From IMG/VR virus record IMGVR_UViG_3300045988_182965: a stretch of DNA of 64,000 nt; one strand, given 5' to 3'. Position numbers and translations under genes: made by a program. Every line of letters begins with the position of its first letter. The stretch's first letter is position 1. The notes beneath the pieces were generated by a model. It did not search any database and was not told the origin of the DNA. It saw only the letters and a list, made by a program, of their open reading frames with translations. This DNA comes from a virus. Shown one piece after another: positions 19,577-54,512 of the stretch.

Positions 19577-22500
19577 ATGAGCGCCAAAATCGTCATCAAA
19601 ACAACGGGCCGCGTTGTTCCGATGATTTATGCCTATACCACTCCTGAGATTGCCCGCCACAACGGTTGGACGAAAATCGGCTACACCGAGCAGGACGTAG
19701 ACAAACGTCTGAGTCAGCAGACCCATACTGCCGATGTGGAATACAAAGAAGAATGGCGCGGCAACGCTACGTTCGAGGACGGCTCCGGCGATACTTTTAC
19801 CGATAAGGATTTTCACCGCTACCTGCGCAAGCTGAACATTGAGAACGACCCCAAGAACGAATGGTTCCATGTGACAGGGCCTGTCTCCCGCAACCACTTC
19901 TATGATTTCCGCAGCAATCGCGGCATCCTGCAAACTCTGACTGCTGCCACACCGTATAATCTACGTGAGGAACAGGAAGATGCCGTAGAGAAAACGCTGG
20001 ATTACAGCCGTCTGCACACCAAGGGAGAATACCTCTGGAACGCAAAACCGCGCTTCGGCAAGACACTGACGGCCTATGAACTCTGCAAGCAGATGAATGC
20101 GAACACGGTCCTTATCGTGACAAACCGCCCTGCGATTGCAAACTCGTGGTATTCCGATTATGAGAAATTTCTCGGTCCCGATTCCGGGTATCTGTTTGTG
20201 AGCGATACCAGCTCCCTGCAGGGTAAGCCTTTTGTTGTGAGCCGCAATCAGTATCTGGATATGCTGAACAACGGCGACTATAAATGCATCGAGTTCGTCA
20301 GCTTGCAGGACCTCAAAGGCTCCATTTACTTTGGCGGCGAATTTGAAAAGCTGAAAGAAGTCAATGACATCCATTGGGATGTTTTGATTATTGACGAAGC
20401 ACACGAGGGTGTAGATACCTACAAGACGGATGTGGCGTTCGACCACATTGAACGCAACTTTACGCTGCACCTGTCCGGCACGCCGTTCAAGGCTATTGCC
20501 AGCGAAAAATTCAAAGAGGATGCCATCTATAACTGGACCTATGCCGACGAGCAAAAGAAAAAACGCGATTGGCAGGGCGACCAGAGCGAACAGAACCCCT
20601 ATGCCAATCTGCCGCAACTCAATATGTTCACCTATCAGATGTCTGAGGTCGTTCGGGATGAACTGAAACAAGGCATCGAAATCAACGGTGAAACAGAAGA
20701 GTGGGCCTTTGACCTGAATGAATTTTTTGCGGTCAATCAGGCCGGAAACTTTGTGCATGACAGCGCGGTGGACAAGTTCCTTGATGCGCTGACTACACAG
20801 ACTAAGTTCCCGTTCTCTACGCCGGAACTGCGAGATGAATTAAAGCATACGCTTTGGCTGCTGAACCGTGTGGACAGCGCCAAGGCGCTGGCCCGCAAGC
20901 TGAACAACCATCCTGTTTTCAAGGATTACAAGGTTGTTGCGGCAGTGGGGGATGGCAGACTGAACGATGATGATTCTGCCAAAAAAGCGTTTGACAGCGT
21001 TACCGAGGCTATCGCCCAGAACGATAAAACAATTACGCTGTCTGTCGGACAGCTCACCACGGGCGTTACGATTCCAGAATGGACTGCCGTGCTGATGTTG
21101 AGCAGCATAAAGAGCGCATCCCTGTATATGCAGGCAGCGTTCCGTGCGCAGAACCCGTGTCTGTTCCGAGATAAGGGCAAGTTCTACCGCAAGGAGAACG
21201 CCTACATCTTTGATTTCGACCCGGCGCGAACCCTTATGATTTTTGAGGAGTTCGCCAACGACCTGTATGCCAGCACCTCCGATGGGCGCGGTGATACCGA
21301 AACCCGCAAAAAGCACATCAAGGAACTGTTGAACTTCTTCCCGGTCATCGGTGAGGATGAAGACGGCGAGATGGTGGAGCTGGATGCCGAAAAGGTGCTT
21401 TCCATTCCGCGAAAGATTCGCTCCACAGAAGTTGTGAATCGCGGATTTATGTCCAATTATCTGTTCCAGAACATTTCCAACATCTTCGGTGCTCCGCAAG
21501 CGGTTGTGGACATTATTACGAAGTTCACCCCTGCGGACGAACCAAAAAAGCAGGAAGTCAAGAAAGAGGATTTGGACCACGTCCATGTGGATGAAAACGG
21601 CGATGTCAAGGTAGACGAGGGCTATGTTATCGGTCTGGCTGATGACATTTTTGGCGATAAAATCTATGATACTGTCGGTGAACAGGTCACGCAGGCTATT
21701 GATAAAGTTGCCGTTGACAACCAGCCCAAGGATAAGGCGCTGGAAGCGTTGCAGGAGGCTTTCAAGGTGCAGGCCGTCAAACCTATTGTTGCTGCTGCCA
21801 CCTCTAATTATGGCTCAGAAATCAAGGCTTCGGATGCCAAGCGCGTAGAAAAGAAGCTGGGCGAGGATGCGGACCGTCTGGTTGCGCGGACTTACGGAGA
21901 TTACCGTATTGAAACCAACCAAATCGAAAAAGAGCGTCATGAGCAGTTGGCTTCTGCCGCGCCTCACGAGCAGGAAAAAATCAATCAGGAGTTTGACCAG
22001 AAAAAAGCCGAGGCCACTGAAAAGCTGAAAGCCGCTTTGAATGATACGGTTAACAGCTTCGTGGAAGATGCCGCCAAAGAAACTGTCCGCAGCTATGAGA
22101 CGCAAATTGAGGAACGCAAGAAGAACGATGTGGAAGATACCATCCGTGACCATCTGCGCGGTTTTGCCCGCACAATTCCATCGTTCCTGATGGCCTACGG
22201 TACAGAGGATACCACTCTTGCCAACTTCGACCAAATCGTTCCCGATGAAGTTTTTCAAGAAGTCACCAGCATCACGCTGGAGCAGTTCCGTTTCCTGCGC
22301 GATGGCGGAGATTACGAGGATACCGCCACAGGCGAGACAAAGCACTTTGACGGGAAGCTATTTGATGAAGTCGTATTCGATGATTCCATCAAAGAGTTCC
22401 TACGGCTGAAACGTGAGCTGGCAAACTATTTTGACCCAGCAAACGAGAAGGACATCTTCGACTACATCCCGCCACAGCGCACGAACCAAATCTTTACGCC

Positions 22501-22873
22501 GAAAGCAACTGTGGCGAAGATGGTATCGCTTTTGGAAGAAGAAAATCCCGGATGCTTTGATGACCCGGACAAGACCTTTATTGACCTGTACATGAAATCG
22601 GGCCTGTACATTACCGAAATCGTGAAGCGCCTGTACCAGAGCGAAGGCATGAAAACCGCGTTCCCGAACCCCAAGGAGCGGCTCGAACACATCTTTGAAA
22701 AGCAGGTCTACGGTCTGGCCCCATCCGAAATTATTTATCGCATTGCGACCAACTATATTCTTGGGTTCTCTGAGGAGCATAACGGAAAGCAGTATAACTT
22801 TCGTATGTGCGATACATTGCCTTATGCAAAGGATGGGACGTTGAGCGAAAAGCTGGATGAGTTATTTGGATAA
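19577..22873 (+). CDS. T5orf172 (GIY-YIG-related) domain plus SF2 DEAH helicase. Carries a C-terminal MTase AdoMet-binding segment (motifs X and I only).
   Basis: N-terminal WTKIGYTEQDVDKRLSQQ. Helicase motifs PRFGKT, IIDEAHEG, SGTP and QAAFRAQNP. C-terminal IFTPKATVAKMV and FIDLYMKSGLYI resemble MTase motifs X and I. Confidence 0.6.
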   Translation: MSAKIVIKTTGRVVPMIYAYTTPEIARHNGWTKIGYTEQDVDKRLSQQTHTADVEYKEEWRGNATFEDGSGDTFTDKDFHRYLRKLNIENDPKNEWFHVTGPVSRNHFYDFRSNRGILQTLTAATPYNLREEQEDAVEKTLDYSRLHTKGEYLWNAKPRFGKTLTAYELCKQMNANTVLIVTNRPAIANSWYSDYEKFLGPDSGYLFVSDTSSLQGKPFVVSRNQYLDMLNNGDYKCIEFVSLQDLKGSIYFGGEFEKLKEVNDIHWDVLIIDEAHEGVDTYKTDVAFDHIERNFTLHLSGTPFKAIASEKFKEDAIYNWTYADEQKKKRDWQGDQSEQNPYANLPQLNMFTYQMSEVVRDELKQGIEINGETEEWAFDLNEFFAVNQAGNFVHDSAVDKFLDALTTQTKFPFSTPELRDELKHTLWLLNRVDSAKALARKLNNHPVFKDYKVVAAVGDGRLNDDDSAKKAFDSVTEAIAQNDKTITLSVGQLTTGVTIPEWTAVLMLSSIKSASLYMQAAFRAQNPCLFRDKGKFYRKENAYIFDFDPARTLMIFEEFANDLYASTSDGRGDTETRKKHIKELLNFFPVIGEDEDGEMVELDAEKVLSIPRKIRSTEVVNRGFMSNYLFQNISNIFGAPQAVVDIITKFTPADEPKKQEVKKEDLDHVHVDENGDVKVDEGYVIGLADDIFGDKIYDTVGEQVTQAIDKVAVDNQPKDKALEALQEAFKVQAVKPIVAAATSNYGSEIKASDAKRVEKKLGEDADRLVARTYGDYRIETNQIEKERHEQLASAAPHEQEKINQEFDQKKAEATEKLKAALNDTVNSFVEDAAKETVRSYETQIEERKKNDVEDTIRDHLRGFARTIPSFLMAYGTEDTTLANFDQIVPDEVFQEVTSITLEQFRFLRDGGDYEDTATGETKHFDGKLFDEVVFDDSIKEFLRLKRELANYFDPANEKDIFDYIPPQRTNQIFTPKATVAKMVSLLEEENPGCFDDPDKTFIDLYMKSGLYITEIVKRLYQSEGMKTAFPNPKERLEHIFEKQVYGLAPSEIIYRIATNYILGFSEEHNGKQYNFRMCDTLPYAKDGTLSEKLDELFG

Positions 22874-37511: not shown

Positions 37512-39677
37512 ATGGCAAGAAGGAAAACAAACGACTTGGAAAATCAGATGTCGCTGATGGACATGATGGCATCGGAAAGCCCCGAATATACCGAAGAAGG
37601 CCCGGAAGAACTCTTGGACCCCGGCGAGGACATGGAGGACAGTGAAGGGCAGACGGATAAGCCCTTCAAACTCGTGGCGAACAAGACCACGAAGGCAAAG
37701 GCGAGCATCTCCACGCAGGCGTTGAGTGTTGTGAAGGCGGTATATGCTGATACGGTCGAAACGAATTGGGAAGAGTTGTTTGACGGGTTCGACAGACTCT
37801 ATGCTATCACTTTTTCGTCCGGTATCGAGTTCGTGAATAAGGTCATCAACAAGTTCTCGTATGCGGAAGTCGTGTTCGGCTGCGAGAAAATCATCGCCAA
37901 CGACATCGCTGCCATCATGTCGGTGCAAATCGACAGCGTGCAGCGGCTCGCTAAGTCTAAGTCGGCAGGGAACCTTGCGAACCGCCTCGATGACGGGTCT
38001 TTGCAGCTGTATGTATCGCGGGACACGAAATCGCACGAGAAAATCTTCATTTTGGAGAGCGCTGACCATAAGCGTGTCCGAGCCATCACCGGCAGTGCGA
38101 ATATGTCGGCATCGGCGTTTTGCGGCATCCAGCGAGAGAATATCGTTTGCTTCGATGACGAGGCGGCATTTTCGCATTACAAGGTTCTGTTCGAGACCTT
38201 CAAGGAGACCTGCTCCGACAATGTCTCCTATAAGGCAGTCGTGAACACCATGAACCAGGAAGATTATCTGAAAGAGAACATCAAAGAAGTGCCCGTCTTT
38301 CAGTCTATTGAAAAGCAGAAGCTTGTCTTTCTGGAACAGGCACAGCCTGAGGATGAGGTCGAATACGAGATAGTTGCCGATGTCAAGAAAATGCAGGAAC
38401 TCGTCAAGCCAATCATGCCTAAGATGCCGGTACAGGCGAATCGTATTGTAGTGGCAGCGGAACCGATGCGCGTTTTCGGGAAACGATATACCGAGGTGCG
38501 GCGTGTGGCAGCTGAGGCAGTTAAGCAGCTCCCAAAATTACATATCGACTATGATGCCGGGACCATGACCTTCAACGACGAAAATATCGACCTCAATCCG
38601 AATCTCAGCGAGGTGGCAAAGAACATCAAGAGCATCCAGAAGTTCTTCTCAGGCATGGACTACTTTTACGGCGATGTCGAACAGGCCAAGAAGGACTACT
38701 TCAAGTACATGACCTGGTATCTGGCTACTCCGTTCATGGCGTATCTGCGGTATTTCGCATCGAGGAACAACTACGATACGAAGCTGTTCCCGATGTACGG
38801 CGTTATATACGGCGACTCAAACGGCGGCAAGACGACCTTTATAAAATTTCTTGTCAAACTCATGTGCGGTGAGACCGTTAAGATGAACACGACGGAGGAT
38901 TTCACAGCCACAAGAATCGACGGCCTCAAACGAGTTTGTGAGGGACTGCCGCTGAACATCGACGACCTCGCCAAGACCCAGTTTCAGAACCATTCAGAAC
39001 GGGTAATCAAGAACGATGAATGGGGTATCTCGGACAGGCTCGTGAACTATCCTGCTGTATCTATCACATCGAATAAAATTACCTCGCTGACAAAAGACCT
39101 CTCGAAACGTGCTATCATCTGTCGAATTGGTGCTAAAATCGACAACGAGCGCGGTGCCAAAAACTCGAAGCGTGTGAATGAGAGTATGTCGGAGCTGACA
39201 ACCGCGTTCTATGGCGAATATGTCCGCCGAATGCTTGTTTGCACCGATGAGATGACGACGGGAATGCGTGAAAATGCGAATGGCAAGGAATACTTCCCGG
39301 ATATCTTCCACGCTTCGTCTAGTGTCATTGCAGATATCTTCGAGGCATGCGGAATCGATTTGCCGGACTATGTGCGTATCCTGTACTATAACGACTATAT
39401 GGGTGATGAGAGCATTGGTCGTGCTGCAATTGAGAAAATCGAACTGGCATGGCAGGCTGACCCGAGCAAGTTCCGGGTTGATAAGAAGCAGAACAGGCTC
39501 ATTTACTCCTATCCGCCGGATGGACCGTGGTACGAACTGAAATACATTGCAGATGAGCTGCCGAACTCCCTCGAAGCAGAGATTTCTGGCGGCAACCAGC
39601 TTATCATGAACTACGAGCAGGAACAGGAATTGTTCGGCATCAAGTTTCGGCGCTGGCTGGGCATCTTTAACCTCTAA
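37512..39677 (+). CDS. Protein with an N-terminal PLD-like (HKD) nuclease motif and a C-terminal P-loop NTPase
   Basis: HEKIFILESADHKRVRAITGSANMS fits HxK(x)4D/E(x)6GSxN. P-loop YGDSNGGKTTF. Confidence 0.45.
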   Translation: MARRKTNDLENQMSLMDMMASESPEYTEEGPEELLDPGEDMEDSEGQTDKPFKLVANKTTKAKASISTQALSVVKAVYADTVETNWEELFDGFDRLYAITFSSGIEFVNKVINKFSYAEVVFGCEKIIANDIAAIMSVQIDSVQRLAKSKSAGNLANRLDDGSLQLYVSRDTKSHEKIFILESADHKRVRAITGSANMSASAFCGIQRENIVCFDDEAAFSHYKVLFETFKETCSDNVSYKAVVNTMNQEDYLKENIKEVPVFQSIEKQKLVFLEQAQPEDEVEYEIVADVKKMQELVKPIMPKMPVQANRIVVAAEPMRVFGKRYTEVRRVAAEAVKQLPKLHIDYDAGTMTFNDENIDLNPNLSEVAKNIKSIQKFFSGMDYFYGDVEQAKKDYFKYMTWYLATPFMAYLRYFASRNNYDTKLFPMYGVIYGDSNGGKTTFIKFLVKLMCGETVKMNTTEDFTATRIDGLKRVCEGLPLNIDDLAKTQFQNHSERVIKNDEWGISDRLVNYPAVSITSNKITSLTKDLSKRAIICRIGAKIDNERGAKNSKRVNESMSELTTAFYGEYVRRMLVCTDEMTTGMRENANGKEYFPDIFHASSSVIADIFEACGIDLPDYVRILYYNDYMGDESIGRAAIEKIELAWQADPSKFRVDKKQNRLIYSYPPDGPWYELKYIADELPNSLEAEISGGNQLIMNYEQEQELFGIKFRRWLGIFNL

Positions 39678-39795: not shown

Positions 39796-40392
39796 ATGAG
39801 CTATGAACCCATTATCACACCGGGCAGGAATTTCTTTCTTGTCTCGACGGAGTACAAAGAGAGCTGCTCCGCCTGGTGCCGCAAGCAAATTGGCACGACA
39901 CTGAGAACCTGTCAGGGACGAGTCATCATCATTGATGCAACGGGCGAGTATGCGAACCTGGCACTTGACCATGACAGACTAATTCGAGAGAAGATTCCGT
40001 CCATCATTTATCGGTATAAGTTGGTGGACGGAAAACCGTATATCGCTCACGTCATTGAGGTCGATACGGAAGCAAACGAAGCACCACGCCTGATTGTGTA
40101 CGATATCAGCCGGACCTTAATCACCAGCTGGAAAGTCGGCGTGGAAGCCATCAATAAAATCCTGCAATCTTATGCCGTGATGCGGGACAATGAAATCGCA
40201 TGGCTGTATGTTCCGTTGGACCTATATACCAATGTCAAACCCGAAAGCGAATCCTGGAATATTCTGGAACGAACCATCAAGGGCAATGAAGGTAAGCTCA
40301 TGACGGTGCTGACAACACGAAAATTCAATATCGGTACAGTTCAGCGCTGTTTGCATATGACAAAAAATAAACTTTTGGAGGATAGCAAATGA
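39796..40392 (+). CDS. hypothetical protein
   Basis: 198-aa ORF. Confidence 0.4.
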   Translation: MSYEPIITPGRNFFLVSTEYKESCSAWCRKQIGTTLRTCQGRVIIIDATGEYANLALDHDRLIREKIPSIIYRYKLVDGKPYIAHVIEVDTEANEAPRLIVYDISRTLITSWKVGVEAINKILQSYAVMRDNEIAWLYVPLDLYTNVKPESESWNILERTIKGNEGKLMTVLTTRKFNIGTVQRCLHMTKNKLLEDSK

Positions 40393-41276
40393 CCAATGAA
40401 CAACTGAGAATCGCATTAACGGCAAATGCCGTTACCAAACAGACCCGTAACCATTTTGGGTTCAGTGACCCGTGTGGGAAGACTCTGGAAGAGTACAACA
40501 AATCTTCAATGCTTTGCTGCGTGACGGCAGCGCAGAAAATGAACACGCCGGGTTTCGAACGTGTCCTTGCTGCACAGATTTTCCCCTGCTTCACCATCGG
40601 CTGCTGGAACCAGACGAAGACGGTCTATGATTTTGACTACGAGTTCCAGAAAATTCTTATGGATACGGATGACATGGCAATTCATCAGGATATCCTGCAG
40701 CGGCTTACGGTTCGTGATTTCTTTGTTCCTTTGTACGACAGCTACGACTATACCGGTATGTTCGTGCATGTGGAATTCGACGAGAAAGAGAAGACCACTG
40801 CTTTCGGCATCGTTCTTGTCGGCCCGGCCAAAGGCAGCCATGATGATTTCACGTTCCTGACTCTGCCTGCCTGGGCCAAAGAAAATCAGAGCTTGACGGA
40901 AGCAACCCGGAGCACAAAAGAATATCTGGAAAAGGCGGCTGGGCAGCGGCAGGTAAATGGTATCAGCGTTCCGGCTGTGATGGAAGCAGTTCCTTCGGTC
41001 TTTGACGGCGGCACACCTTATGTTCGTCTGGCAATCCTGTGTGCCTACTATCTCGCCAGTAAGAACCCTGATGCCCGCCTGGAAACTTCCAGGAAGCGTG
41101 ACCGCCCGGTATTCGTGTTTCAGGGAAAGGCACAGCGAATCAACGTCAAGACATATACCGTTGGTGAGAATGCGGCCAAAGAATACAAAAAGAATGGGGA
41201 AGGCAAAACTCCCCGCTGGCGGCATTACTGGTGCGGCAATGGCCGAGAACGTCGGGAATGCAAATTCATCTATTGA
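40389..41276 (+). CDS. hypothetical protein
   Basis: 295-aa ORF, coupled to the upstream gene (ATGA). Confidence 0.45.
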   Translation: MTNEQLRIALTANAVTKQTRNHFGFSDPCGKTLEEYNKSSMLCCVTAAQKMNTPGFERVLAAQIFPCFTIGCWNQTKTVYDFDYEFQKILMDTDDMAIHQDILQRLTVRDFFVPLYDSYDYTGMFVHVEFDEKEKTTAFGIVLVGPAKGSHDDFTFLTLPAWAKENQSLTEATRSTKEYLEKAAGQRQVNGISVPAVMEAVPSVFDGGTPYVRLAILCAYYLASKNPDARLETSRKRDRPVFVFQGKAQRINVKTYTVGENAAKEYKKNGEGKTPRWRHYWCGNGRERRECKFIY

Positions 41277-46021: not shown

Positions 46022-46474
46022 ATGATTCGATTCAGAAAAGATACCCCTCGCTATTGGTTTATGAGCAACTATTACCCTTGCGAATTTGTGATGGATGGGA
46101 TTCGCTACAAGAACGCTGAAGCAGCGTTTCAGAGTCACAAGGTCCCACTGGAAGAGCGCAGACAGTTTGCGGACATGCCACCGGCTTCTGCCAAGCGTTT
46201 TGGCCGTAATGTGGCTATCCCCGCAAACTGGGACAAAACTCGGGACGATGTAATGCGCCGCGTGGTGATGGCCAAGTTCGAGCAGAATGAGGACCTCAAA
46301 CAGCGCCTCCTCGAAACGGGTACGCAGCCTATTGAGGAAGATACGACCAGCTGGCATGACAACTATTGGGGTAACTGCCATTGCCAGAAGTGCCGGAACA
46401 TCCCGAGCCAGAATCGGCTCGGTATCATTCTGATGGAAACCAGGGACAAGCTGAAAAAGCAAACAGGCAAATAA
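46022..46474 (+). CDS. NADAR (DUF1768, YbiA-like) domain protein
   Basis: FMSNYYPCEF...YKNAEAAFQSHK matches the NADAR FSNFY...AEHYFQ pattern. Confidence 0.55.
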   Translation: MIRFRKDTPRYWFMSNYYPCEFVMDGIRYKNAEAAFQSHKVPLEERRQFADMPPASAKRFGRNVAIPANWDKTRDDVMRRVVMAKFEQNEDLKQRLLETGTQPIEEDTTSWHDNYWGNCHCQKCRNIPSQNRLGIILMETRDKLKKQTGK

Positions 46475-46678: not shown

Positions 46679-48565
46679 TCATTGCACGATTTCGCCCAGG
46701 TCATTTGCGTATTTCGGGTCACACATCATGAAGTAGTTGACGGGGCCGTACTCCAGACCGAGCTCCTGCGCATATGCCCTGATAGCTTCCAGAACGTCCT
46801 CTTTCTTGAGATTATACTTGGAATACAGACGAGCAAATTCTTTGTCAGAGACAGAGACGCAAGAGCAATTTTCTGCATCGGTTTCTTTGCTGCCCAGCAT
46901 CCCGTCAAAGATGTCCTGTCCTGCACAGAGAATCGTCTCATTGTTCATCACATAGGCAATGACAGAAGCCTTGCAGTCAAAGTCGCTGTCTTCCACCAAA
47001 AAGTCCTCAGGGTAGCCGTGACGTTCAACAACGTTTTCATAGATGTCCCGGAGCTCGATAGGAGCAGAAGGAGCGGTCAGCGCTGCTTTATGAAGGCGCA
47101 TGAATTCCACAAACTTTTCATCCGAGAGGGTATCGGTATAAAAACCTACACCGGAAACGCGGACTTTCACTTCGCTGGCAAAGTAATCGTCAATTTTGGA
47201 GACGATTTTCTGCTGGACCCGCTTGTATGCTTCCTGAACATTGGAAGCCGTGTAAAATACCGGGAACTTCATGATGTCGATTCCCTCCGGCAGACTCGCG
47301 TCATAGGCCGCATCAATGCCGCCTCGCAGCGCCGGAACCGCATCATGCAGCTCTTTCACAGAAGAAATGTATCCGGTGATGTACAGCTCATCGTTTTTGC
47401 TGTAATGCCCGATAAGTCCCACATAGAGAGTCTGCATCAGCATGCGCTTGAAGCTGAACCAGCAGAGTCGAATAGGAAGAATGACATTTGCGGCCGTACC
47501 TTCCGCACGATAGGTGCCGGGTGCGGAAATCTTTTCCAGCAGAATCTGGTCGTTCTTGTCACCGTATTTTTCCTTGAAAAGAGCTTGAAGAATTTCAGTG
47601 GACGAAAGAGGAGTGGACATTGGAATCGTTTCATTCAAAAAAGAGAGGAATACATCCACGTTGTCTTTCTGCCATGCGTCATCAGACATGCTTGCACGCT
47701 GCATAGAGAGCTTGTCTTTCCTGTCGTCAGGCAAGGGCTCATACCCACAGGCGATACGAAGCTCGTTCTCCGTGACAGCATCCGTTGCGCTTGCGATTTT
47801 CTTGAGGGTGTTTTCGGTCGGCTGAGCTTTTGCGTTGCCATTCACGAGGCTGCTGATATATCCACGAGTCAGCCCCGCTTGAAACGCAAACTTACCCTGT
47901 GTTCGGGTTCCGATGGCTTTTTTGACCAGCGATGCCAGCCTTTGAAAGTCGGGCTCTTTGGGAAAGGTGGCCTCCGTATCCTTATTGCTGTTCTTTTCAA
48001 GTACCGACTTGTCCCAACCGGTGACAAGAGAATACCCAATATCCTTCAAGGATTGATAGGCAACCCCGTTCTGGTCAAGAGCCGGGGAGTATGTACCGCT
48101 GTTATCTTCCAGCTGCTCTACTGCCTCACGCACCATCCTTGCTTCGTTCATCATGATGACGTCCGGGGCTTCAAGCCGGGCAAGACTCTTGTACCGACTA
48201 TTGAGGCGCTCGACTCGTGCGGCCAATGCAGTGATGTCATCAAGTTGGTCCTTCGTTGCATGGGCAGAGATATCTGCACCAAGTTCAAAATGGTTCAGTG
48301 CAGGAATATCCACGCCTTTGCTCTTGGCGAATTCCACAATGGCTTCCGCGCCATAAAAACGCTTCTCATGGGCTGCGACAACTTTCGTTATCGTGTCGGC
48401 CGAGTTGTCCAGCTCAAGCACTTCACCTTTTCCGGCATCCTCGACATAACACCTGGCGTTGGTGAGAAAGCCTTTCAAAAAATCAGCATCCACATCCAGC
48501 TTCTTAGCGATGCCGGGCAGCTGCTTATAGAAAATCACGGGCGTGGCGAGGTTAACAGAAATCAT
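46679..48565 (-). CDS. 628-aa hypothetical protein with a central HTH (XRE-like) segment
   Basis: Minus-strand ORF with protein-like composition. The overlapping + ORF is C/H/R-rich and looks like a shadow frame. GKFAFQAGLTRGYISSLVNG is HTH-like. Confidence 0.5.
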   Translation of the reverse strand: MISVNLATPVIFYKQLPGIAKKLDVDADFLKGFLTNARCYVEDAGKGEVLELDNSADTITKVVAAHEKRFYGAEAIVEFAKSKGVDIPALNHFELGADISAHATKDQLDDITALAARVERLNSRYKSLARLEAPDVIMMNEARMVREAVEQLEDNSGTYSPALDQNGVAYQSLKDIGYSLVTGWDKSVLEKNSNKDTEATFPKEPDFQRLASLVKKAIGTRTQGKFAFQAGLTRGYISSLVNGNAKAQPTENTLKKIASATDAVTENELRIACGYEPLPDDRKDKLSMQRASMSDDAWQKDNVDVFLSFLNETIPMSTPLSSTEILQALFKEKYGDKNDQILLEKISAPGTYRAEGTAANVILPIRLCWFSFKRMLMQTLYVGLIGHYSKNDELYITGYISSVKELHDAVPALRGGIDAAYDASLPEGIDIMKFPVFYTASNVQEAYKRVQQKIVSKIDDYFASEVKVRVSGVGFYTDTLSDEKFVEFMRLHKAALTAPSAPIELRDIYENVVERHGYPEDFLVEDSDFDCKASVIAYVMNNETILCAGQDIFDGMLGSKETDAENCSCVSVSDKEFARLYSKYNLKKEDVLEAIRAYAQELGLEYGPVNYFMMCDPKYANDLGEIVQ

Positions 48566-48798
48566 GGTGTACTCCTTTCAGATATGTCATTAGCTGTACA
48601 ATGCTGTCATCTTCTGTAATTATAATAGCACATCCCGCACCAAAAAGCAAGCATGAATTTACAATAAATGACAAGAAAATACACCAGATGACATATAGGG
48701 CAAAGCGGTTGATTTCCGAGTCTTTGCTACCCCGTGACGGAACGTGCCCTGTGCGTCTTGTCTTTGTCACGGTTTTGCCATAATTTTGCCTTGTGCAT

Positions 48799-48818
48799 CC
48801 GTGCGAATTGAATATGAT
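48799..48818 (+). promoter_or_regulatory. Element promoter motif CCGTGCGAATTGAATATGAT
   Basis: Consensus match upstream of the MTase gene. Confidence 0.45.
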
Positions 48819-48936
48819 GGGAAATATAAGATAAATAAGTGTAAGCCGCAGAGATTATGTTTCTGCGGCTATTTCTTTTGTGGTCCCCATGCGGATTGAG
48901 ATGTCTGCGTGGGGATTTTTTATTGGGAGATATAGA

Positions 48937-49927
48937 CATGGCAAAGAATGAGAATCTGCACAAGGCAAAGGATGCCAAGAACGACGAGTTCTATACGCTG
49001 TTGAGCAGTGTATCCGAAGAACTCAGACACTACAAGCAGCATTTCGCTGGCAAAATCGTGTTTTGCAACTGCGATGACCCGACGTGGTCCGCTTTCTGGC
49101 GATACTTCCATCTGAACTTTTCTGAACTCGGCTTGAAGAAGCTCATTGCAACACACTATGACCGCACTGAGCCTACCTACAAGATGGAATATGAGGGCGG
49201 AGACGACAATGATGTGGAAGTCGGCGTAAAGACTCCGCTCGAAAGCAATGGCGACTTTCGCAGTGAGGAGTGTCTTGCTTTACTGGACGAGTGCGACATC
49301 GTTGTTACAAATCCACCGTTTAGCCTTTTTAGAGAATTCGTCGGGACGTTGATGGAACACGATAAGAAGTTCATTATTTGGGGCAACAACAATGCCATTA
49401 CATACAAAGAGTTCTTTCCACTTTTGAAAGAAAACAAGGTGTGGCTTGGTTATACAGCGAATAAGACGTGTACATTTAGAGTCGCCGAAGGCTATCGCTT
49501 CGACGAAAAACTTACTGCACAATTCAATGACGGGCACAAGTATGGGAAAGTGCCCGCCATTTCTATTTTTACCAACCTCGACATCCAGAAACGTCACGAG
49601 AAGCTGATTCTTTGGAAGCATTTCACTCCAGAAGAATATCCCACATATCTCAATGTGGACAATGCAATCAATGTGGATTCCGTGGACGATATTCCATGTG
49701 ATTATAACGGAATTATCGGAGTTCCTATAACTTTTTTGAGTAAGCATAACCCGGACCAATTCGAAATAATTGGAATTGATAAAGACTTGCGGAAGCCCAT
49801 GTCGAAAATTGCAAATCCAGGGGAATACAATAACTCGGGAACCGCTTTATATTTACCTTACCCTGGCAACGGCTTTAAGTATAAAGCTACATATAGAAGA
49901 CTATTTATTCGCAGAAAGGATATCTAA
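48937..49927 (+). CDS. DNA N6-adenine methyltransferase (Dam-like / phage-type)
   Basis: DEFYT near the N-terminus and VVTNPPF catalytic motif. Confidence 0.55.
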
Positions 49928-49928
49928 T

Positions 49929-50597
49929 ATGAACTTGAAAGATGTACAAAATTTAATTAGCAAACCTTTGAAACCAAATCCGTCCGAATGGGCTATGGAT
50001 GTGGAAGAAGTTCTTACTGACACAAACAATTTGTCAGAAGAAGCAAAGACAGCCGTATATAAAACAAAATTTCATAATGGAGCATTTCAAAATTACACAG
50101 ATGAATTGGTCGCAATGCTCAAGCGTATTGTAAAAAAAGAAATTGCCAATAAGAATAATGATGTGCAAGGAGAAGATGTCGTAATGACAAACAAAAATGT
50201 ATTTATCGTGTATTCGCACCAAAACGAATATATGATGTTCAAAATCAAAGACTTTATCAAAAAGAATCTTGGACTTTGTCCCAAAACACTTGATATCTCC
50301 GAGTATACTGGCAGCGTATGGGATGCCTTTTCTACGAATGTAGCAGACTGTCAAAAGGCAGTGGTTCTCATGTCTGGTGATGATAATGTTACTGATGCTC
50401 ATGGCAATACATATAAACAGGCAAGACCAAATGTTTTTATTGAGCTTGGTTACCTGATTCATAAATGCGGTCTAAAAAACGTCACCATTGTTTATTCTGA
50501 TAATTGCAAAGAACCTTCTGACATTGGAAATCTGGTTTCAGTTCATTATGGCAGTGAAATGTGGACGGAAAGCTTTCGCAAACAGTTAAATAGATAA
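49929..50597 (+). CDS. TIR-like (PF10137-type) nucleotide-binding domain protein
   Basis: VFIVYSH...RPNVFIELGYLIHKCG resembles the TIR-like RpNVmFElGy core. Confidence 0.45.
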   Translation: MNLKDVQNLISKPLKPNPSEWAMDVEEVLTDTNNLSEEAKTAVYKTKFHNGAFQNYTDELVAMLKRIVKKEIANKNNDVQGEDVVMTNKNVFIVYSHQNEYMMFKIKDFIKKNLGLCPKTLDISEYTGSVWDAFSTNVADCQKAVVLMSGDDNVTDAHGNTYKQARPNVFIELGYLIHKCGLKNVTIVYSDNCKEPSDIGNLVSVHYGSEMWTESFRKQLNR

Positions 50598-50607
50598 GGA
50601 GCTAATT

Positions 50608-51744
50608 ATGCAAATTACAGAAACTAAAATCAAGGTATCTGACCTTGTCGAGAACTACAAAGATAATGGTGATGGCGGTGTCTTTGGTTACAATGACCGT
50701 CTTACGATTCGCCCGTCCTTTCAGCGTGAATTCATTTACGGGGAGAAGCAACGTGCAGCCGTTATTGATTCCGTGATGAACGGATTCCCGCTGAACGTCA
50801 TGTACTGGTCCAAGACTGGAGCAAACACCTACGAGGTTCTCGATGGACAGCAACGAACTATTTCTATTGCACAGTATGTCAATAAGGATTTTCCTGTCAA
50901 AATCAACGGCAACGACAAGTTCTTCCAGAACCTGACCGATGAGGAAAAGCAGGCAATTCTGGACTATGAGCTGACGGTCTATGTCTGTGAAGGCACGGAA
51001 GCCGAGAAGCTGGAGTGGTTCAAGCGCATCAACATTGCTGGCGAGGTTCTGACTCCGCAGGAATTGCTGAATGCTACCTATACAGGACCGTGGCTGGCCG
51101 ATGCCAAGAACTACTTCTCGAAGCGCAACTGCATTGCTGCAAAGATGGCTGACGGATATCTGAAGGGCAACCCGATTCGGCAGGAATTGCTGGAAAAAGC
51201 ACTGGCATGGATTGCTGACCGTGACGGTCTGGAATCCGGGCAGATGTACATGGCAGTTCACCAACATGACGAGGATGCCAATGACCTCTGGCTTTACTTC
51301 CAGTCAGTTATCAACTGGGCAAAAATGCTGTTCCCGACTAAGCGGAAGGGGATTACTGATGCGCAGGCGTGGGGTCTGCTCTACAACCAGTACCATACGA
51401 AGCAGTACAACAGCAATGCTTTGGAAGCAGACATCAAGAATCTCGTGATGGATGATGATGTGACAAAGAAGGCAGGCATCATCTCGTTCATCCTCTCTGA
51501 CCGTACTTGGCGCGATGAGAAGCATCTGTCCCTTCGTGCGTTTACGGAATCGCAGAAACTCCGTGCCTATGAACGGCAGGGTCACAAGTGTCCGCTGTGC
51601 GTTGCGAACGGCATCAACACCGAGTATGCCTATGAGGATATGGAAGGTGACCACATCATTCCTTGGAGCAAAGGCGGGCATACCACCGACAACAACCTGC
51701 AGATGCTGTGCAAGAAGTGCAATGCAGCGAAGTCAGATATGTGA
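50608..51744 (+). CDS. DUF262 (ParB-like NTPase/nuclease) plus C-terminal HNH endonuclease, GmrSD-like
   Basis: N-terminal RPSFQREF...DGQQR pattern. C-terminal CPLC...GDHIIPWSKGGHTTDNNLQMLCKKCN HNH motif. Confidence 0.6.
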   Translation: MQITETKIKVSDLVENYKDNGDGGVFGYNDRLTIRPSFQREFIYGEKQRAAVIDSVMNGFPLNVMYWSKTGANTYEVLDGQQRTISIAQYVNKDFPVKINGNDKFFQNLTDEEKQAILDYELTVYVCEGTEAEKLEWFKRINIAGEVLTPQELLNATYTGPWLADAKNYFSKRNCIAAKMADGYLKGNPIRQELLEKALAWIADRDGLESGQMYMAVHQHDEDANDLWLYFQSVINWAKMLFPTKRKGITDAQAWGLLYNQYHTKQYNSNALEADIKNLVMDDDVTKKAGIISFILSDRTWRDEKHLSLRAFTESQKLRAYERQGHKCPLCVANGINTEYAYEDMEGDHIIPWSKGGHTTDNNLQMLCKKCNAAKSDM

Positions 51745-51956
51745 TGGTGGGAGCATATCATGAAAAAATATTGCTATTTCATGTTCGGTATGTTCACCGG
51801 CACAGATGAAAATAGATACAACATCTGCATTCCGTCACCATTTGTACGAGGCTCAAAAGCAGAAGCTATGAAGGACGAGAATGTGCCAACCGCTTTTGGG
51901 CTATTGACTCGACAAGACTTCTGCTGGTCGCATTTGCAAACAAAGACTTCGAGCCT

Positions 51957-52220
51957 ATGAACAACGGCAAAATGCAGTTGAGATGTTGGGTAGATGAGGA
52001 TTTTGTCGGGACCTATACCTTTGAAGAATTCAAGGAAAATGGCGGGGATATTCGACAACTGAAGCCGAGCGGCATGAGAAAATATGTAACTGATGAGTCG
52101 GACTTTGTTGATACCGACAAGTCGTTTGCTGATGTGTCCCCAAACATAGAGCAGAGGAAACTCTACTATGTGGATGGGGAAGCGTATTACATTAGGGAAA
52201 TAACAGATGATACAAGTTGA
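51957..52220 (+). CDS. hypothetical small protein
   Basis: 87-aa ORF. Confidence 0.3.
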   Translation: MNNGKMQLRCWVDEDFVGTYTFEEFKENGGDIRQLKPSGMRKYVTDESDFVDTDKSFADVSPNIEQRKLYYVDGEAYYIREITDDTS

Positions 52221-52244
52221 ACGACAAAATGATAGGAGCTTATT

Positions 52245-53132
52245 ATGGAATATACAAAAACAGTCACTTCATCTATAGGAGGAGTTTTGCTTTTTATATG
52301 GGCAATAACTATAATAATTGTGCCGCTATTATTTCTTATTTATAGTATATGTAAAGGCAGTCGTAATAGACCTTTGTGGCTTATAGTGATTTTAGCCCTT
52401 GGAGAAGTATTATGGATTGTAGTTATGGGAATAGCAGGACTAGAAAAGACATTCGATTTATTAGAGAAAGCATTTGTGGAATTTGTACCAAGTTTAGAAG
52501 GCTTTACAATAGGAAAATTTATTCCAATTATGTTAATATCTATAATGGTAGAACTAGGAGCGATTGATTTGTTCTCAGCAAAAATTGATGAAAAACTTGA
52601 ACCAATACAAAATCGCCTATTTAATTCGATGAAACGCAAACCACAAATTGATATTGATGTAACGAAAAAGGACTATGAAAAGAAATCAAACATAAATATT
52701 TATGGCTATTATGCGCGACTCCGGAAAAGAAAAAATGAATATGAAAATGAAACAATTGTCCCAGAAGAACTTATAACACAATGGCTTTGTACAATAAGAG
52801 GAAAAGAAACAGAAGTGATTTTAGCAAAAATTCTTGAAAAAAGCGATAACACTGATGGAACAATAATTCAATTAGAAGACAATGGTGAAAAGCGCACATT
52901 GTTTATGACAGGAGACGAAAGTGACAAAAATGAATCAAAGCACTTGCAATCCTATGCAAATAAGCGTGCCGTACAAAGATTCGAAAACATGAAAGCTAGA
53001 GGGTTTCTTGAAGGCGACATTTCCCGTTTCTATATTACGTTACAAGGAAAAGAATACGTTCTGGAAAAGAGCGCTTTTGATTTACTTCCTCCTAAATTAG
53101 ATTCCAACGAGCAAAGCAATAACAATACATAA
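52245..53132 (+). CDS. Membrane protein (N-terminal TM helices plus a cytoplasmic domain) in an AT-rich insert
   Basis: AT-rich ORF, about 33% GC against about 50% in the surroundings. 3-4 predicted TM helices. Confidence 0.45.
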   Translation: MEYTKTVTSSIGGVLLFIWAITIIIVPLLFLIYSICKGSRNRPLWLIVILALGEVLWIVVMGIAGLEKTFDLLEKAFVEFVPSLEGFTIGKFIPIMLISIMVELGAIDLFSAKIDEKLEPIQNRLFNSMKRKPQIDIDVTKKDYEKKSNINIYGYYARLRKRKNEYENETIVPEELITQWLCTIRGKETEVILAKILEKSDNTDGTIIQLEDNGEKRTLFMTGDESDKNESKHLQSYANKRAVQRFENMKARGFLEGDISRFYITLQGKEYVLEKSAFDLLPPKLDSNEQSNNNT

Positions 53133-53660: not shown

Positions 53661-54512
53661 ATGAAGCAAACAACTACGAAACAACATTATTTACCGAGAT
53701 ATAGGCTCCAACACTTTCTAAGAAGTAATAGCAAATATTATGTACATAGTAATGGAACAAGTCCAAACAAAAAAGATAGAGAAACAGGGAAAAATGATAG
53801 TTTTTTTGCCGTATGTGACAAACTTTATGAATTGACTGAGGTTCCTTCATGGGCAGACCATAAAAATTTAATAGAAACAGATTTACTTGCAAACGATGTC
53901 GAACGTGAAGATGCTTGTAGAATCAATAAAGTAATAGATAGTATTAAGGCGAACAATGAGCTCTCACAAATCGATAGTGAATGGCTAGGAAAATACGCAT
54001 TAAGAATGCTATATCGCTCACCCGCATACATGAAAGAAATAAAAGCAATTCCTGAATTTCAAGACCCAACAACATACTATAAATTTATGCGCTTCACACA
54101 AAAGGATGAGCATCCGAATCTTACGAAACAGGAGTGGTCTGTCGCAAAAATACTTTTGGGCTTGTACAGTGATGGGACGATAATATTAAAAAATCCGCAT
54201 AGCACATTTATACTCCCGGATTCTGGATTTGGAATCTGCCATTTTAATAACACTTCGACATTGATATTTACACCATTGACCCCATCTATTTGTATGTTGA
54301 CCTCGAAAGGCCCATGCGCTTTTCTTAAATGGCTTGATGGTAATATTGTCACGGCAACTATAAACGAAGTTTCAGCAATCAATGAAATCCTTTTTGCTTG
54401 TAGCAACAGTGAAATAGCTTCGATGTATAAATTAAGTGCGTCGTATTTGAACAAATTGAAAGCAATTAAAGAAAAACCGCTTAGTACAGTATCTCTTACG
54501 GAACAATTGTAG
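53661..54512 (+). CDS. DUF4238-like protein
   Basis: N-terminal KQHYLPRYRLQHF resembles the DUF4238 HYvPqfyL signature. AT-rich. Confidence 0.4.
   Translation: MKQTTTKQHYLPRYRLQHFLRSNSKYYVHSNGTSPNKKDRETGKNDSFFAVCDKLYELTEVPSWADHKNLIETDLLANDVEREDACRINKVIDSIKANNELSQIDSEWLGKYALRMLYRSPAYMKEIKAIPEFQDPTTYYKFMRFTQKDEHPNLTKQEWSVAKILLGLYSDGTIILKNPHSTFILPDSGFGICHFNNTSTLIFTPLTPSICMLTSKGPCAFLKWLDGNIVTATINEVSAINEILFACSNSEIASMYKLSASYLNKLKAIKEKPLSTVSLTEQL

What the first reader, a model, noticed from the sequence alone, without database searches (positions are those of the whole stretch)
48937..51744. Compact three-gene island: Dam-like MTase, TIR-like nucleotide-binding protein and DUF262-HNH endonuclease. 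Candidate uncharacterised immunity/restriction system.
The genes are tightly packed, with a 1-nt and a 10-nt gap, behind one motif promoter. DUF262-HNH proteins are GmrSD-like modification-dependent nucleases, so the adjacent adenine MTase is not expected as a classical partner. The TIR-like (PF10137-type) protein between them suggests a nucleotide-signalling or NADase component. The combination could be a composite system: methylation marks self, the TIR-like protein senses or signals, and HNH cleaves. I do not recognise this trio as a named system.
Basis: partly seen in the sequence, partly recalled or inferred. Interest (0 to 1): 0.8.

Follow-up and report, generated by a model that had tools for sequence, protein, structure and literature searches.

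The report
Restriction-modification operon carrying a swappable TIR gene
The outer two genes are a common two-gene restriction-modification system, and the TIR gene between them is one of at least twelve unrelated, interchangeable genes, several of them defence-like, that occupy the same slot in sister copies of the operon.

Summary
The three genes are real and tightly packed: MTase 48938-49927, TIR-like 49929-50597, DUF262-HNH 50608-51744, with gaps of 1 and 10 nt. The domain calls hold, except that the MTase belongs to the EcoRI family, not Dam.

The proposed dedicated three-part system is not supported.
- **Genes 1 and 3 form an ordinary Type II R-M pair.** Both match PADLOC's Type II MTase and REase profiles over nearly their full length. 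In 59 of 69 genome loci the homologous M and R genes abut with nothing between them. None of 80 genome loci has the TIR gene.
- **The M/R junction is a cargo slot.** In 30 viral-catalogue contigs whose REase is 92-96% identical to the window's, the slot is always filled, but only once by this TIR. Other occupants include a TIR_2 protein (PDC-S66), DUF4238, DUF4145 and several unknown families. Across all related loci the cargo falls into at least 12 unrelated families, which also include HEPN_AbiU2.
- **Swapping happens in place.** Two contigs share the window's upstream backbone yet carry different cargo.

The TIR protein matches PADLOC candidate PDC-S35 and keeps every NAD-pocket residue of SfSTING's TIR domain. 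It is most likely an embedded, self-contained NADase abortive-infection gene.

A PrrC-like coupling to the R-M system remains possible. Relatives also sit after Type I and Eco57I-type methylase genes, and some are fused to half an HsdS subunit.

The parts
48844..48917 (+). Two tandem terminator-like hairpins, each followed by a T-run. They end about 20 nt before the MTase start codon, and the RBS GGGAG lies between them and the ATG.
   Evidence: Terminator scan. RNA fold -48.1 kcal/mol, z = -6.9. A similar hairpin lies directly upstream of the MTase in L101, L109 and L111. Function not established.
48938..49927 (+). N6-adenine DNA methyltransferase of the EcoRI family (329 aa, NPPF motif). It is the modification half of the Type II R-M pair.
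   Evidence: Pfam PF13651 at 5.6e-116. PADLOC MTase_II PDLC03297 at 1.4e-109. A homolog lies directly upstream of the REase homolog in nearly all related loci.
49929..50159 (+). N-terminal four-helix domain of the cargo protein (aa 1-77). Candidate sensor or oligomerisation domain.
   Evidence: AlphaFold2 pLDDT above 90 for aa 10-70, with helices 3-11, 18-31, 37-48 and 54-77. No Pfam family. Only 27 representatives among 1.84 billion proteins; of the eight hits scanned, the two full-length (228 aa) ones are TIR proteins, and many of the rest are short fragments.
50193..50597 (+). TIR domain (aa 89-222, PF10137 type) of the cargo protein, including the stop codon. Predicted NAD+ glycohydrolase.
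50608..51744 (+). Type II restriction endonuclease (378 aa). ParB/DUF262 domain with DGQQR at aa 33-158 (50704-51081) and HNH nuclease at aa 328-377 (51589-51738).
   Evidence: PADLOC REase_II PDLC03418 at 2e-132 over positions 1-371 of 372. Pfam PF03235 and PF01844. D79-R83 (DGQQR) and D348, H349, N363, N372 are invariant in four divergent copies. At least 7997 homologs at E <= 1e-20.

Best explanation
Genes 1 and 3 are a classical two-gene Type II restriction-modification system. The EcoRI-family enzyme methylates adenine in the element's and host's DNA. The DUF262-HNH enzyme cuts incoming DNA that lacks the mark.

Gene 2 is a passenger. It sits in a slot at the M/R junction that, in sister copies of the same operon, holds any of at least twelve unrelated single genes. 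Several of these are defence-like.

The passenger here is a four-helix N-domain joined to a PF10137-type TIR domain with a complete NAD-binding and catalytic pocket. It most likely acts on its own as a latent NAD+ hydrolase. On a still unknown infection cue it would be switched on, probably by N-domain-driven oligomerisation as in other TIR NADases. It would then drain NAD+ and abort infection by phages that escape restriction.

It is probably co-transcribed and co-transferred with the R-M genes. Cargo is exchanged by recombination between the conserved 5' part of the MTase gene and the 5' end of the REase gene.

Shown: domain identities, active-site conservation, the independence of the R-M pair from the TIR, the variability of the slot, and cargo swapping on one backbone.

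Inferred: NADase activity, abortive-infection role, the trigger, co-transcription, and orthodox (methylation-blocked) cleavage.
For: R-M pair:
- Near full-length PADLOC Type II MTase and REase hits.
- M and R abut in 59 of 69 genome loci, and 0 of 80 genome loci have the TIR.
- 215 plasmid records hold a REase homolog. The best-matching ones are annotated 'DUF262 domain-containing protein', most with an adjacent or overlapping 'EcoRI family methyltransferase'.
- Most of the more distant viral loci (48-56% identity) also have M and R abutting or nearly so.

Cargo slot:
- All 30 IMG/VR loci with a REase 92-96% identical to the window's have a 278-1376 nt slot holding a + strand ORF. Only L183 holds this TIR.
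- blastp clustering of slot ORFs across these and other related loci gives at least 12 families.
- Annotated families include TIR_2/PDC-S66 (8.8e-42), DUF4238, DUF4145 and HEPN_AbiU2.
- In more distant R-M pairs the slot holds a Trypsin_2 protease or an OLD-like ATPase-TOPRIM protein.
- L142 and L144, with REases 70-73% identical, have empty slots.
- The cargo proteins share no common domain.
- L156 and L170 share the window's upstream backbone (91-100% nt) but carry other cargo.
- In L015, a relic of the first ~85 nt of the REase gene lies between the TIR gene and an inserted HEPN gene.

TIR protein:
- PDC-S35 match. PDC families were defined as genes embedded in Type I RM, BREX and DISARM operons (bioRxiv 10.1101/2024.01.29.577857).
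- TIR fold.
- All five SfSTING NAD-pocket and catalytic residues that can be aligned are conserved.

Autonomy:
- Stand-alone homologs with no MTase or REase nearby occur in L115 (66% identity), L145 and L149.
- Distant homologs lie next to housekeeping-type or otherwise unrelated genes, with no EcoRI-family MTase or DUF262-HNH homolog nearby.
Against: - No experiment exists for PDC-S35, for this REase family or for its recognition site. No paper in the library mentions PDC-S35.
- The TIR clade shows a recurrent preference for sitting directly after N6-adenine methylase or specificity genes of three unrelated R-M types. In some contigs it is fused to half an HsdS subunit. This hints at more than passive hitch-hiking.
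- The 1-nt M/TIR spacing is kept in 7 of 9 divergent cassettes.
- The trigger is unknown, and no sensor domain of a known type is present.
- Several cargo families have no detectable defence domain.
Confidence: 0.6

Rival explanations
1. PrrC-like guard. The TIR protein is physically held inactive by the methylase or the R-M complex. It is released as an NADase when a phage anti-restriction protein disables the R-M system, so the trio is a functionally coupled two-layer unit.
For: - Relatives of this TIR clade sit directly after N6-adenine MTase or specificity genes of three different R-M types: EcoRI-family Type II; HsdM+HsdS (L125, L146-148); and an Eco57I-family MTase followed by a T5orf172-ResIII protein (L124).
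- Half-HsdS-TIR fusion proteins P0094 and P0096 follow hsdM and hsdS in L011-L014.
- The 1-nt M/TIR gap is conserved.
- A precedent exists: PrrC lies within EcoprrI and is activated by T4 Stp.
Against: - The same slot in near-identical operons holds at least 12 unrelated proteins with no shared docking domain.
- The R-M pair is mostly found without any cargo.
- Stand-alone TIR homologs exist.
- The N-domain is the same next to unrelated MTase families, so specific binding to one partner is unlikely.
Confidence: 0.2
2. One reading: a dedicated three-component system in which methylation marks self, the TIR protein senses infection or makes a nucleotide signal, and the signal activates the HNH nuclease.
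For: - The three genes are packed in one apparent operon.
- They co-occur in many contigs.
- TIR domains make signalling nucleotides in Thoeris (established knowledge).
Against: - The REase family works as a pair with its MTase in hundreds of genomes without any TIR.
- A REase 92-96% identical is paired with non-TIR cargo in 29 of 30 viral contigs.
- The REase has only DUF262 and HNH domains, with no SLOG, Macro, SAVED or other signal-receiver domain.
- No Thoeris ThsA-like or cyclase gene lies nearby.
Confidence: 0.04
3. The middle gene is not host defence. It serves the mobile element, either as an addiction toxin that strengthens post-segregational killing by the R-M pair, or as an anti-defence enzyme that destroys NAD-derived or nucleotide immune signals.
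For: - The window is a mobile element with a TraG-like ATPase, an ImpB polymerase, a NADAR domain protein and an AcrVA2-like protein.
- The TIR fold is shared with nucleotide N-glycosidases and deoxyribosyltransferases such as MilB, BcmB and NDT.
Against: - The best sequence matches are immune NADase TIR domains (Cap12, PycTIR), with the NAD pocket conserved.
- The HMM match is to a defence-candidate family.
- Co-resident cargo families include HEPN_AbiU2, OLD-like and TIR_2/PDC-S66, which are typical defence effectors.
Confidence: 0.1

Closest known systems
Defence genes embedded inside R-M, BREX, DISARM or Hma operons ('guilt by embedding', Payne et al., bioRxiv 10.1101/2024.01.29.577857). 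PADLOC candidate PDC-S35 comes from that work.
   Same: - A single gene is nested inside a restriction-modification operon.
- Gene 2 matches the PDC-S35 HMMs (1.1e-20 to 3.8e-14).
- A sister cargo matches PDC-S66.
- The cargo is diverse and mostly unannotated, as that paper describes.
   Different: - The host operon here is a two-gene Type II system. The PDC survey covered Type I RM, BREX and DISARM, and the related HEC candidates came from Hma.
- The slot is a single precise junction that is always filled in the closest clade (30 of 30) and is swapped on one backbone.
- PDC-S35 itself is untested.
PrrC anticodon nuclease embedded in the Type Ic system EcoprrI (hsdM-hsdS-prrC-hsdR)
   Same: A suicide effector gene lies between the modification and restriction genes. 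The possible logic is a back-up defence when restriction fails.
   Different: - PrrC is an ABC-ATPase plus anticodon nuclease, not a TIR.
- Its masking by EcoprrI and its activation by Stp are shown experimentally. Nothing of the kind is shown here.
- The generic nature of the slot argues against a specific partnership.
CBASS Cap12 (TIR-STING) and Pycsar PycTIR effectors, the families behind PF10137
   Same: - Same TIR subfamily by sequence (7un8 at 6e-8, 8jsj at 4e-5).
- Same NAD-pocket and catalytic Glu residues.
- They probably act the same way, by NAD+ depletion after oligomerisation.
   Different: - There is no STING or cyclic-nucleotide-binding domain. The partner domain is a novel 77-aa four-helix bundle.
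- No CD-NTase or pyrimidine cyclase lies in the neighbourhood.
- NCBIfam Cap12 scores are far below cut-off (27 against 450 bits).
GmrSD, BrxU and SspE (DUF262 + DUF1524 Type IV or modification-dependent nucleases)
   Same: The N-terminal ParB/DUF262 domain has the DGQQR motif, and the C-terminal nuclease is of the His-Me type.
   Different: - The C-terminal domain is PF01844 HNH, not DUF1524.
- The protein is 378 aa.
- It is strictly linked to its own adenine methylase, so it behaves as an orthodox Type II enzyme.

Membership tests
Type II restriction-modification system (orthodox) | A DNA methyltransferase with a catalytic (D/N)PP(Y/F) motif | tested here: met
   PF13651 at 5.6e-116 and PADLOC MTase_II at 1.4e-109. 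NPPF is visible in the translation.
Type II restriction-modification system (orthodox) | A separate endonuclease with an intact nuclease motif that is homologous to catalogued Type II REases | tested here: met
   PADLOC REase_II PDLC03418 at 2e-132, positions 1-371 of 372. The HNH residues D348, H349, N363 and N372 are invariant.
Type II restriction-modification system (orthodox) | M and R genes are linked and co-conserved across unrelated genomes | tested here: met
   59 of 69 genome loci have M and R abutting. The pair occurs on plasmids and in viral contigs.
Type II restriction-modification system (orthodox) | Cleavage at a defined site is blocked by the cognate methylation | not testable with these tools
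   No biochemical data. The REBASE prototype and recognition site could not be identified.
GmrSD-type Type IV (modification-dependent) nuclease | DUF262 + DUF1524 architecture | tested here: not met
   DUF262 is present, but the C-terminus is PF01844/PF14279 HNH with no DUF1524 hit.
GmrSD-type Type IV (modification-dependent) nuclease | Stands alone, with no cognate methyltransferase | tested here: not met
   An EcoRI-family MTase lies directly upstream in nearly all loci.
TIR-domain NADase (PF10137 subfamily) | TIR fold | tested here: met
TIR-domain NADase (PF10137 subfamily) | Catalytic Glu and NAD-pocket residues (SfSTING F6, S10, R78, N80, E84) | tested here: met
   F92, S96, R166, N168 and E172 align with them. 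All are conserved in at least 90% of 102 homologs.
TIR-domain NADase (PF10137 subfamily) | NAD+ hydrolysis | not testable with these tools
   Needs an enzyme assay.
CBASS (Cap12) or Pycsar (PycTIR) effector | A cyclic-nucleotide sensor domain fused to the TIR, and a cyclase gene in the operon | tested here: not met
   The N-domain has no Pfam match and is a four-helix bundle. NCBIfam Cap12 scores 27 bits against a cut-off of 450. Neighbouring genes include no cyclase.
Thoeris | A ThsB TIR protein together with a ThsA (SIR2 or Macro-SLOG) effector | tested here: not met
   No PADLOC ThsB hit for gene 2. No ThsA-like domain in the flanking genes.
PADLOC candidate PDC-S35 | A match to the PDC-S35 HMMs | tested here: met
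   Five PDC-S35 models hit at 1.1e-20 to 3.8e-14, covering aa 25-221. PADLOC gives no curated cut-off, so this is a family-level assignment.
PADLOC candidate PDC-S35 | Anti-phage activity | not testable with these tools
   The candidate is untested. No paper text mentions PDC-S35.
PrrC/EcoprrI-type guarded effector | The effector is embedded between the modification and restriction genes | tested here: met
   The gene order is M-TIR-R.
PrrC/EcoprrI-type guarded effector | The effector is bound and silenced by the R-M complex and released by an anti-restriction factor | not testable with these tools
   The only indirect hints are the half-HsdS-TIR fusions. The generic cargo slot argues against it.

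The most novel reading that the evidence does not exclude
The M-X-R operon is not merely a carrier. The R-M pair, or its methylase, is the constant sensing module, and X is a swappable suicide effector: two kinds of TIR, HEPN, DUF4238, DUF4145 and others. X would fire when restriction is blocked or overwhelmed. The half-HsdS-TIR fusions would then be the extreme case, in which a Type I methylase complex carries an NADase in place of a nuclease subunit. That would define a family of restriction-coupled abortive-infection systems built on Type II enzymes.
Probability: 0.2. Interest if true: 0.8.

Novelty: new variant of a known kind. Interest (0 to 1): 0.5.

Why it matters
Embedding of defence genes in Type I RM, BREX, DISARM and Hma operons has been described and used as a discovery principle. 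This locus shows the same principle in a compact two-gene Type II operon that is common on gut mobile elements.

The operon has one precise junction that is filled in every one of the 30 closest relatives. Across the related loci the slot holds at least twelve unrelated genes. This has three consequences.
- It assigns the TIR gene a likely role.
- It yields a ready list of new single-gene defence candidates, most without any annotation.
- It provides a natural allelic series, with the same REase and even the same backbone but different cargo. That series makes the open question directly testable: do embedded genes merely travel with R-M systems, or do they work with them?

Tried and rejected
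- **Naming the R-M system.** I tried to find the REBASE prototype or recognition site. PDB sequence searches for M and R found nothing. The large homolog search returned no source names. Literature searches for DUF262 + HNH + Type II, and for EcoRI family + DUF262, gave only GmrSD-type papers.
- **Close DNA relatives.** None were found in the phage or plasmid record collections.
- **Experimental data on PDC-S35.** None in the papers or in the supplements of the source preprint.
- **A shared adaptor domain among cargo proteins.** This would have supported docking to M or R. The alignment and blastp clustering show none.
- **The TIR N-domain with other effectors.** It is found almost only with TIR domains, and it is very rare.
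- **The weak PADLOC hit of aa 10-89 to a Type I specificity profile (3.8e-4).** I do not rely on it. It is marginal and nothing else confirmed it.
- **Homology between the L021 cargo and HEPN_AbiU2 of L015.** Rejected.
- **Rfam.** No credible RNA family in 48000-52500.
- **Recognition site from k-mer avoidance.** I did not attempt this, because the element is self-methylated and the host genomes are too diverse.
Full report
**1. The observation**

The three ORFs exist on the + strand.
- The second gene runs 49929-50597 and the third 50608-51744. The gaps are 1 nt and 10 nt.
- Pfam gives PF13651 EcoRI_methylase (5.6e-116) for gene 1. Gene 2 has PF10137 CAP12/PycTIR-type TIR (8.9e-20, aa 90-206). 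Gene 3 has PF03235 DUF262/GmrSD_N (4e-20) plus PF01844 HNH (1.1e-12).
- So 'Dam-like' is imprecise. Gene 1 is an EcoRI-family N6-adenine enzyme with an NPPF motif.
- The claimed promoter is not reproduced. No + strand sigma-70 match lies upstream of the MTase, and promoter-like sites are no more frequent than in shuffles.
- Instead, two strong terminator-like hairpins (48844-48917, z = -6.9) end about 20 nt before the ATG.
- The region is more AT-rich than its surroundings, with GC 0.40-0.43 over 49-51 kb and 0.34 at 52-53 kb.
- The window belongs to a mobile element. It carries a TraG-like ATPase, an ImpB polymerase, helicases, a NADAR protein and an AcrVA2-like protein.
- The exact TIR protein is found on 13 metagenome contigs of the same element.

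**2. Genes 1 and 3 are an ordinary Type II R-M pair**

- PADLOC's Type II methylase and Type II restriction-enzyme profiles match them over nearly their full length (1.4e-109 and 2e-132).
- A scan of one genome per species found at least 508 loci encoding REase relatives.
- The best 80 loci are 48-74% identical and span many lineages. Named species include Neisseria perflava, Alysiella crassa, Fibrobacter intestinalis and Moryella indoligenes. MAGs are labelled Bacteroides, Treponema, Saccharibacteria and other Patescibacteria.
- In these 80 loci an EcoRI-family MTase lies directly upstream. M and R abut or overlap in 59 of the 69 loci with a full MTase. None of the 80 has the TIR gene.
- 215 plasmid records also hold a REase homolog. 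The best hits are annotated 'DUF262 domain-containing protein', most with an adjacent or overlapping 'adenine-specific methyltransferase EcoRI family protein'.
- The DGQQR motif and the HNH residues are invariant.
- A modification-dependent nuclease could not be stably linked to an adenine methylase in this way.

**3. The middle position is a hypervariable cargo slot**

TIR homologs of 50% identity or more are nearly always found as M-TIR-R, in quite different surroundings. The 1-nt M/TIR gap is kept in 7 of 9 cassettes. The REase-centred view shows why.
- An IMG/VR scan found 155 viral-catalogue loci.
- Thirty of them have a REase 92-96% identical to the window's. All thirty have a 278-1376 nt slot with a + strand ORF. 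Only one (L183, the same contig as L101) holds this TIR.
- Slot ORFs from these and other related loci cluster into at least 12 unrelated families.
- Annotated families include a TIR_2 protein matching PADLOC PDC-S66 (8.8e-42), DUF4238 and DUF4145, plus HEPN_AbiU2.
- Several families have no annotation: the 185, 191, 220-227, 252, 275-293, 303-315 and 338 aa groups.
- More distant R-M pairs occasionally hold a trypsin-like protease or an OLD-like ATPase-TOPRIM protein.
- Two cassettes with REases 70-73% identical have empty slots.
- The cargo proteins share no domain.

DNA comparison supports exchange by recombination.
- The REase gene is 84-95% identical across most of the close clade. The 5' half of the MTase gene is mostly 75-85% identical. 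The last ~400 nt of the MTase gene and the cargo are mostly not alignable.
- L156 and L170 share the window's upstream backbone (91-100% nt) but carry DUF4145 or the 338-aa protein in place of the TIR.
- In L015, a relic of the REase ribosome-binding site and its first ~85 nt lies between the TIR gene and an inserted HEPN_AbiU2 gene, ahead of the intact REase.

Cargo is therefore exchanged in place, using the conserved flanks.

**4. The TIR protein**

- AlphaFold2 (mean pLDDT 81) gives a confident four-helix N-domain (aa 1-77), a disordered linker, and a TIR domain.
- A profile of the family hits Cap12 (7un8, 6e-8) and PycTIR (8jsj, 4e-5).
- In that alignment F92, S96, R166, N168 and E172 match SfSTING F6, S10, R78, N80 and the catalytic E84 (PMC9402430). 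All five are conserved in at least 90% of 102 homologs. NADase competence is thus well supported by sequence, though it is untested.
- There is no STING, cNMP-binding or SAVED domain, and no cyclase or ThsA nearby. It is therefore not CBASS, Pycsar or Thoeris.
- The N-domain is very rare, with 27 representatives in 1.84 billion proteins. Of the eight hits scanned, the two full-length (228 aa) ones are TIR proteins, one with a TIR_2-type TIR.
- PADLOC assigns gene 2 to candidate PDC-S35 (1.1e-20). PDC families were defined as genes embedded in Type I RM, BREX and DISARM operons and are untested.

**5. How it most likely works**

- The R-M pair restricts unmethylated incoming DNA.
- The TIR gene is an embedded, self-contained abortive-infection module that is probably co-transcribed and co-transferred with the pair.
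- Autonomy is supported by the generic slot and by the lack of a common adaptor among cargo proteins.
- It is also supported by stand-alone homologs in L115 (66% identity), L145 and L149, which have no MTase or REase nearby.
- Distant homologs lie next to housekeeping-type or otherwise unrelated genes, with no EcoRI-family MTase or DUF262-HNH homolog nearby.

**6. What keeps a more interesting reading alive**

More distant members of this TIR clade sit directly after methylase or specificity genes of other R-M types.
- In L125 the gene follows HsdM and HsdS, with an HNH protein downstream.
- In L146-148 it lies near HsdM and HsdS.
- In L124 it lies between an Eco57I-family MTase and a T5orf172-ResIII protein.
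- In L011-L014 the TIR domain is fused to half an HsdS subunit, directly after hsdM and hsdS.

This recalls PrrC in EcoprrI. A guard function is possible. I rate it about 0.2.

**7. Comparison and novelty**

- The closest known concept is embedding of defence genes in R-M, BREX and DISARM operons, with PrrC as the classic case.
- What is new is the host, a two-gene Type II operon.
- The single precise, always-filled and actively swapped junction is also new, as is the set of cargo families.
- The trio itself is not a new kind of system, so I file it as a new variant of a known kind.

**8. Limits**

- There are no experimental data.
- The recognition site and the REBASE prototype were not identified.
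- The trigger is unknown.
- The loci sampled are the best 80 per scan, not a full census.
- The closest clade may reflect few independent events.

Noticed in passing
window 48844-48917 (+): Two tandem, very stable terminator-like hairpins with T-runs lie about 20 nt upstream of the MTase start, inside a divergent intergenic region with no + strand gene just upstream. A similar hairpin precedes the MTase in L101, L109 and L111. This may be an attenuator or insulator controlling R-M expression.
   Followed up: partly
window 53661-54512 (+) and 52245-53132 (+): A DUF4238 gene lies in a very AT-rich stretch (GC 0.34-0.41) about 2 kb downstream of the trio. The same family occupies the M/R slot in L168 and L174. 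This and the neighbouring 295-aa protein (no family hit) may be further defence candidates.
   Followed up: partly
window 46022-46474 (+) and 40389-41276 (+): A NADAR-domain gene and an AcrVA2-like gene (the latter annotated on the identical contig L001) lie a few kb upstream. This suggests an anti-defence cluster on the same mobile element.
   Followed up: no
window 46679-48565 (-): A 628-aa protein with an HTH_3 domain is transcribed divergently from the trio. It is kept next to the trio in all copies of this element (L001-L007) and in L156 and L170, but not in other cassettes. It may be a regulator.
   Followed up: no
L011-L014, L118-L122 (proteins P0094, P0096): These 318-aa proteins fuse half a Type I specificity subunit (PF01420) to a TIR domain 63-65% identical to the window's. 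They are encoded right after hsdM and hsdS, with no hsdR in view.
   Followed up: partly
L015 8679-8790: A relic of the REase ribosome-binding site and its first ~85 nt (start codon lost) lies between the TIR gene and an inserted HEPN_AbiU2 gene. It is a footprint of how cargo enters the slot.
   Followed up: yes
window 49538-49927, compared with L151-L184: The 3' ~400 nt of the MTase gene are mostly not alignable at the DNA level among cassettes whose REase genes are about 90% identical. The methylase C-terminal part travels with the cargo. How M and R specificities stay matched is unexplained.
   Followed up: partly
L002, L003, L006 (variants of the window's element): An IS200/IS605-type pair (Y1 transposase with a TnpB or other partner) is inserted upstream. 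In L002 and L003 the 731-aa helicase is truncated to 148 aa.
   Followed up: no
L102 (E. coli IncF plasmid NZ_CP015239.1): A distant PF10137-type 'nucleotide-binding protein' (26% identity) lies next to a P-loop NTPase gene and pifC on 286 enterobacterial plasmids. It may be a related single-gene defence candidate.
   Followed up: no
window 19577-22873 (+) and 37512-39677 (+): A 1098-aa T5orf172 + ResIII helicase protein and a 721-aa PLD/NgoFVII-like nuclease are further defence-like genes on the element. A T5orf172-ResIII protein also follows the TIR homolog in L124.
   Followed up: no
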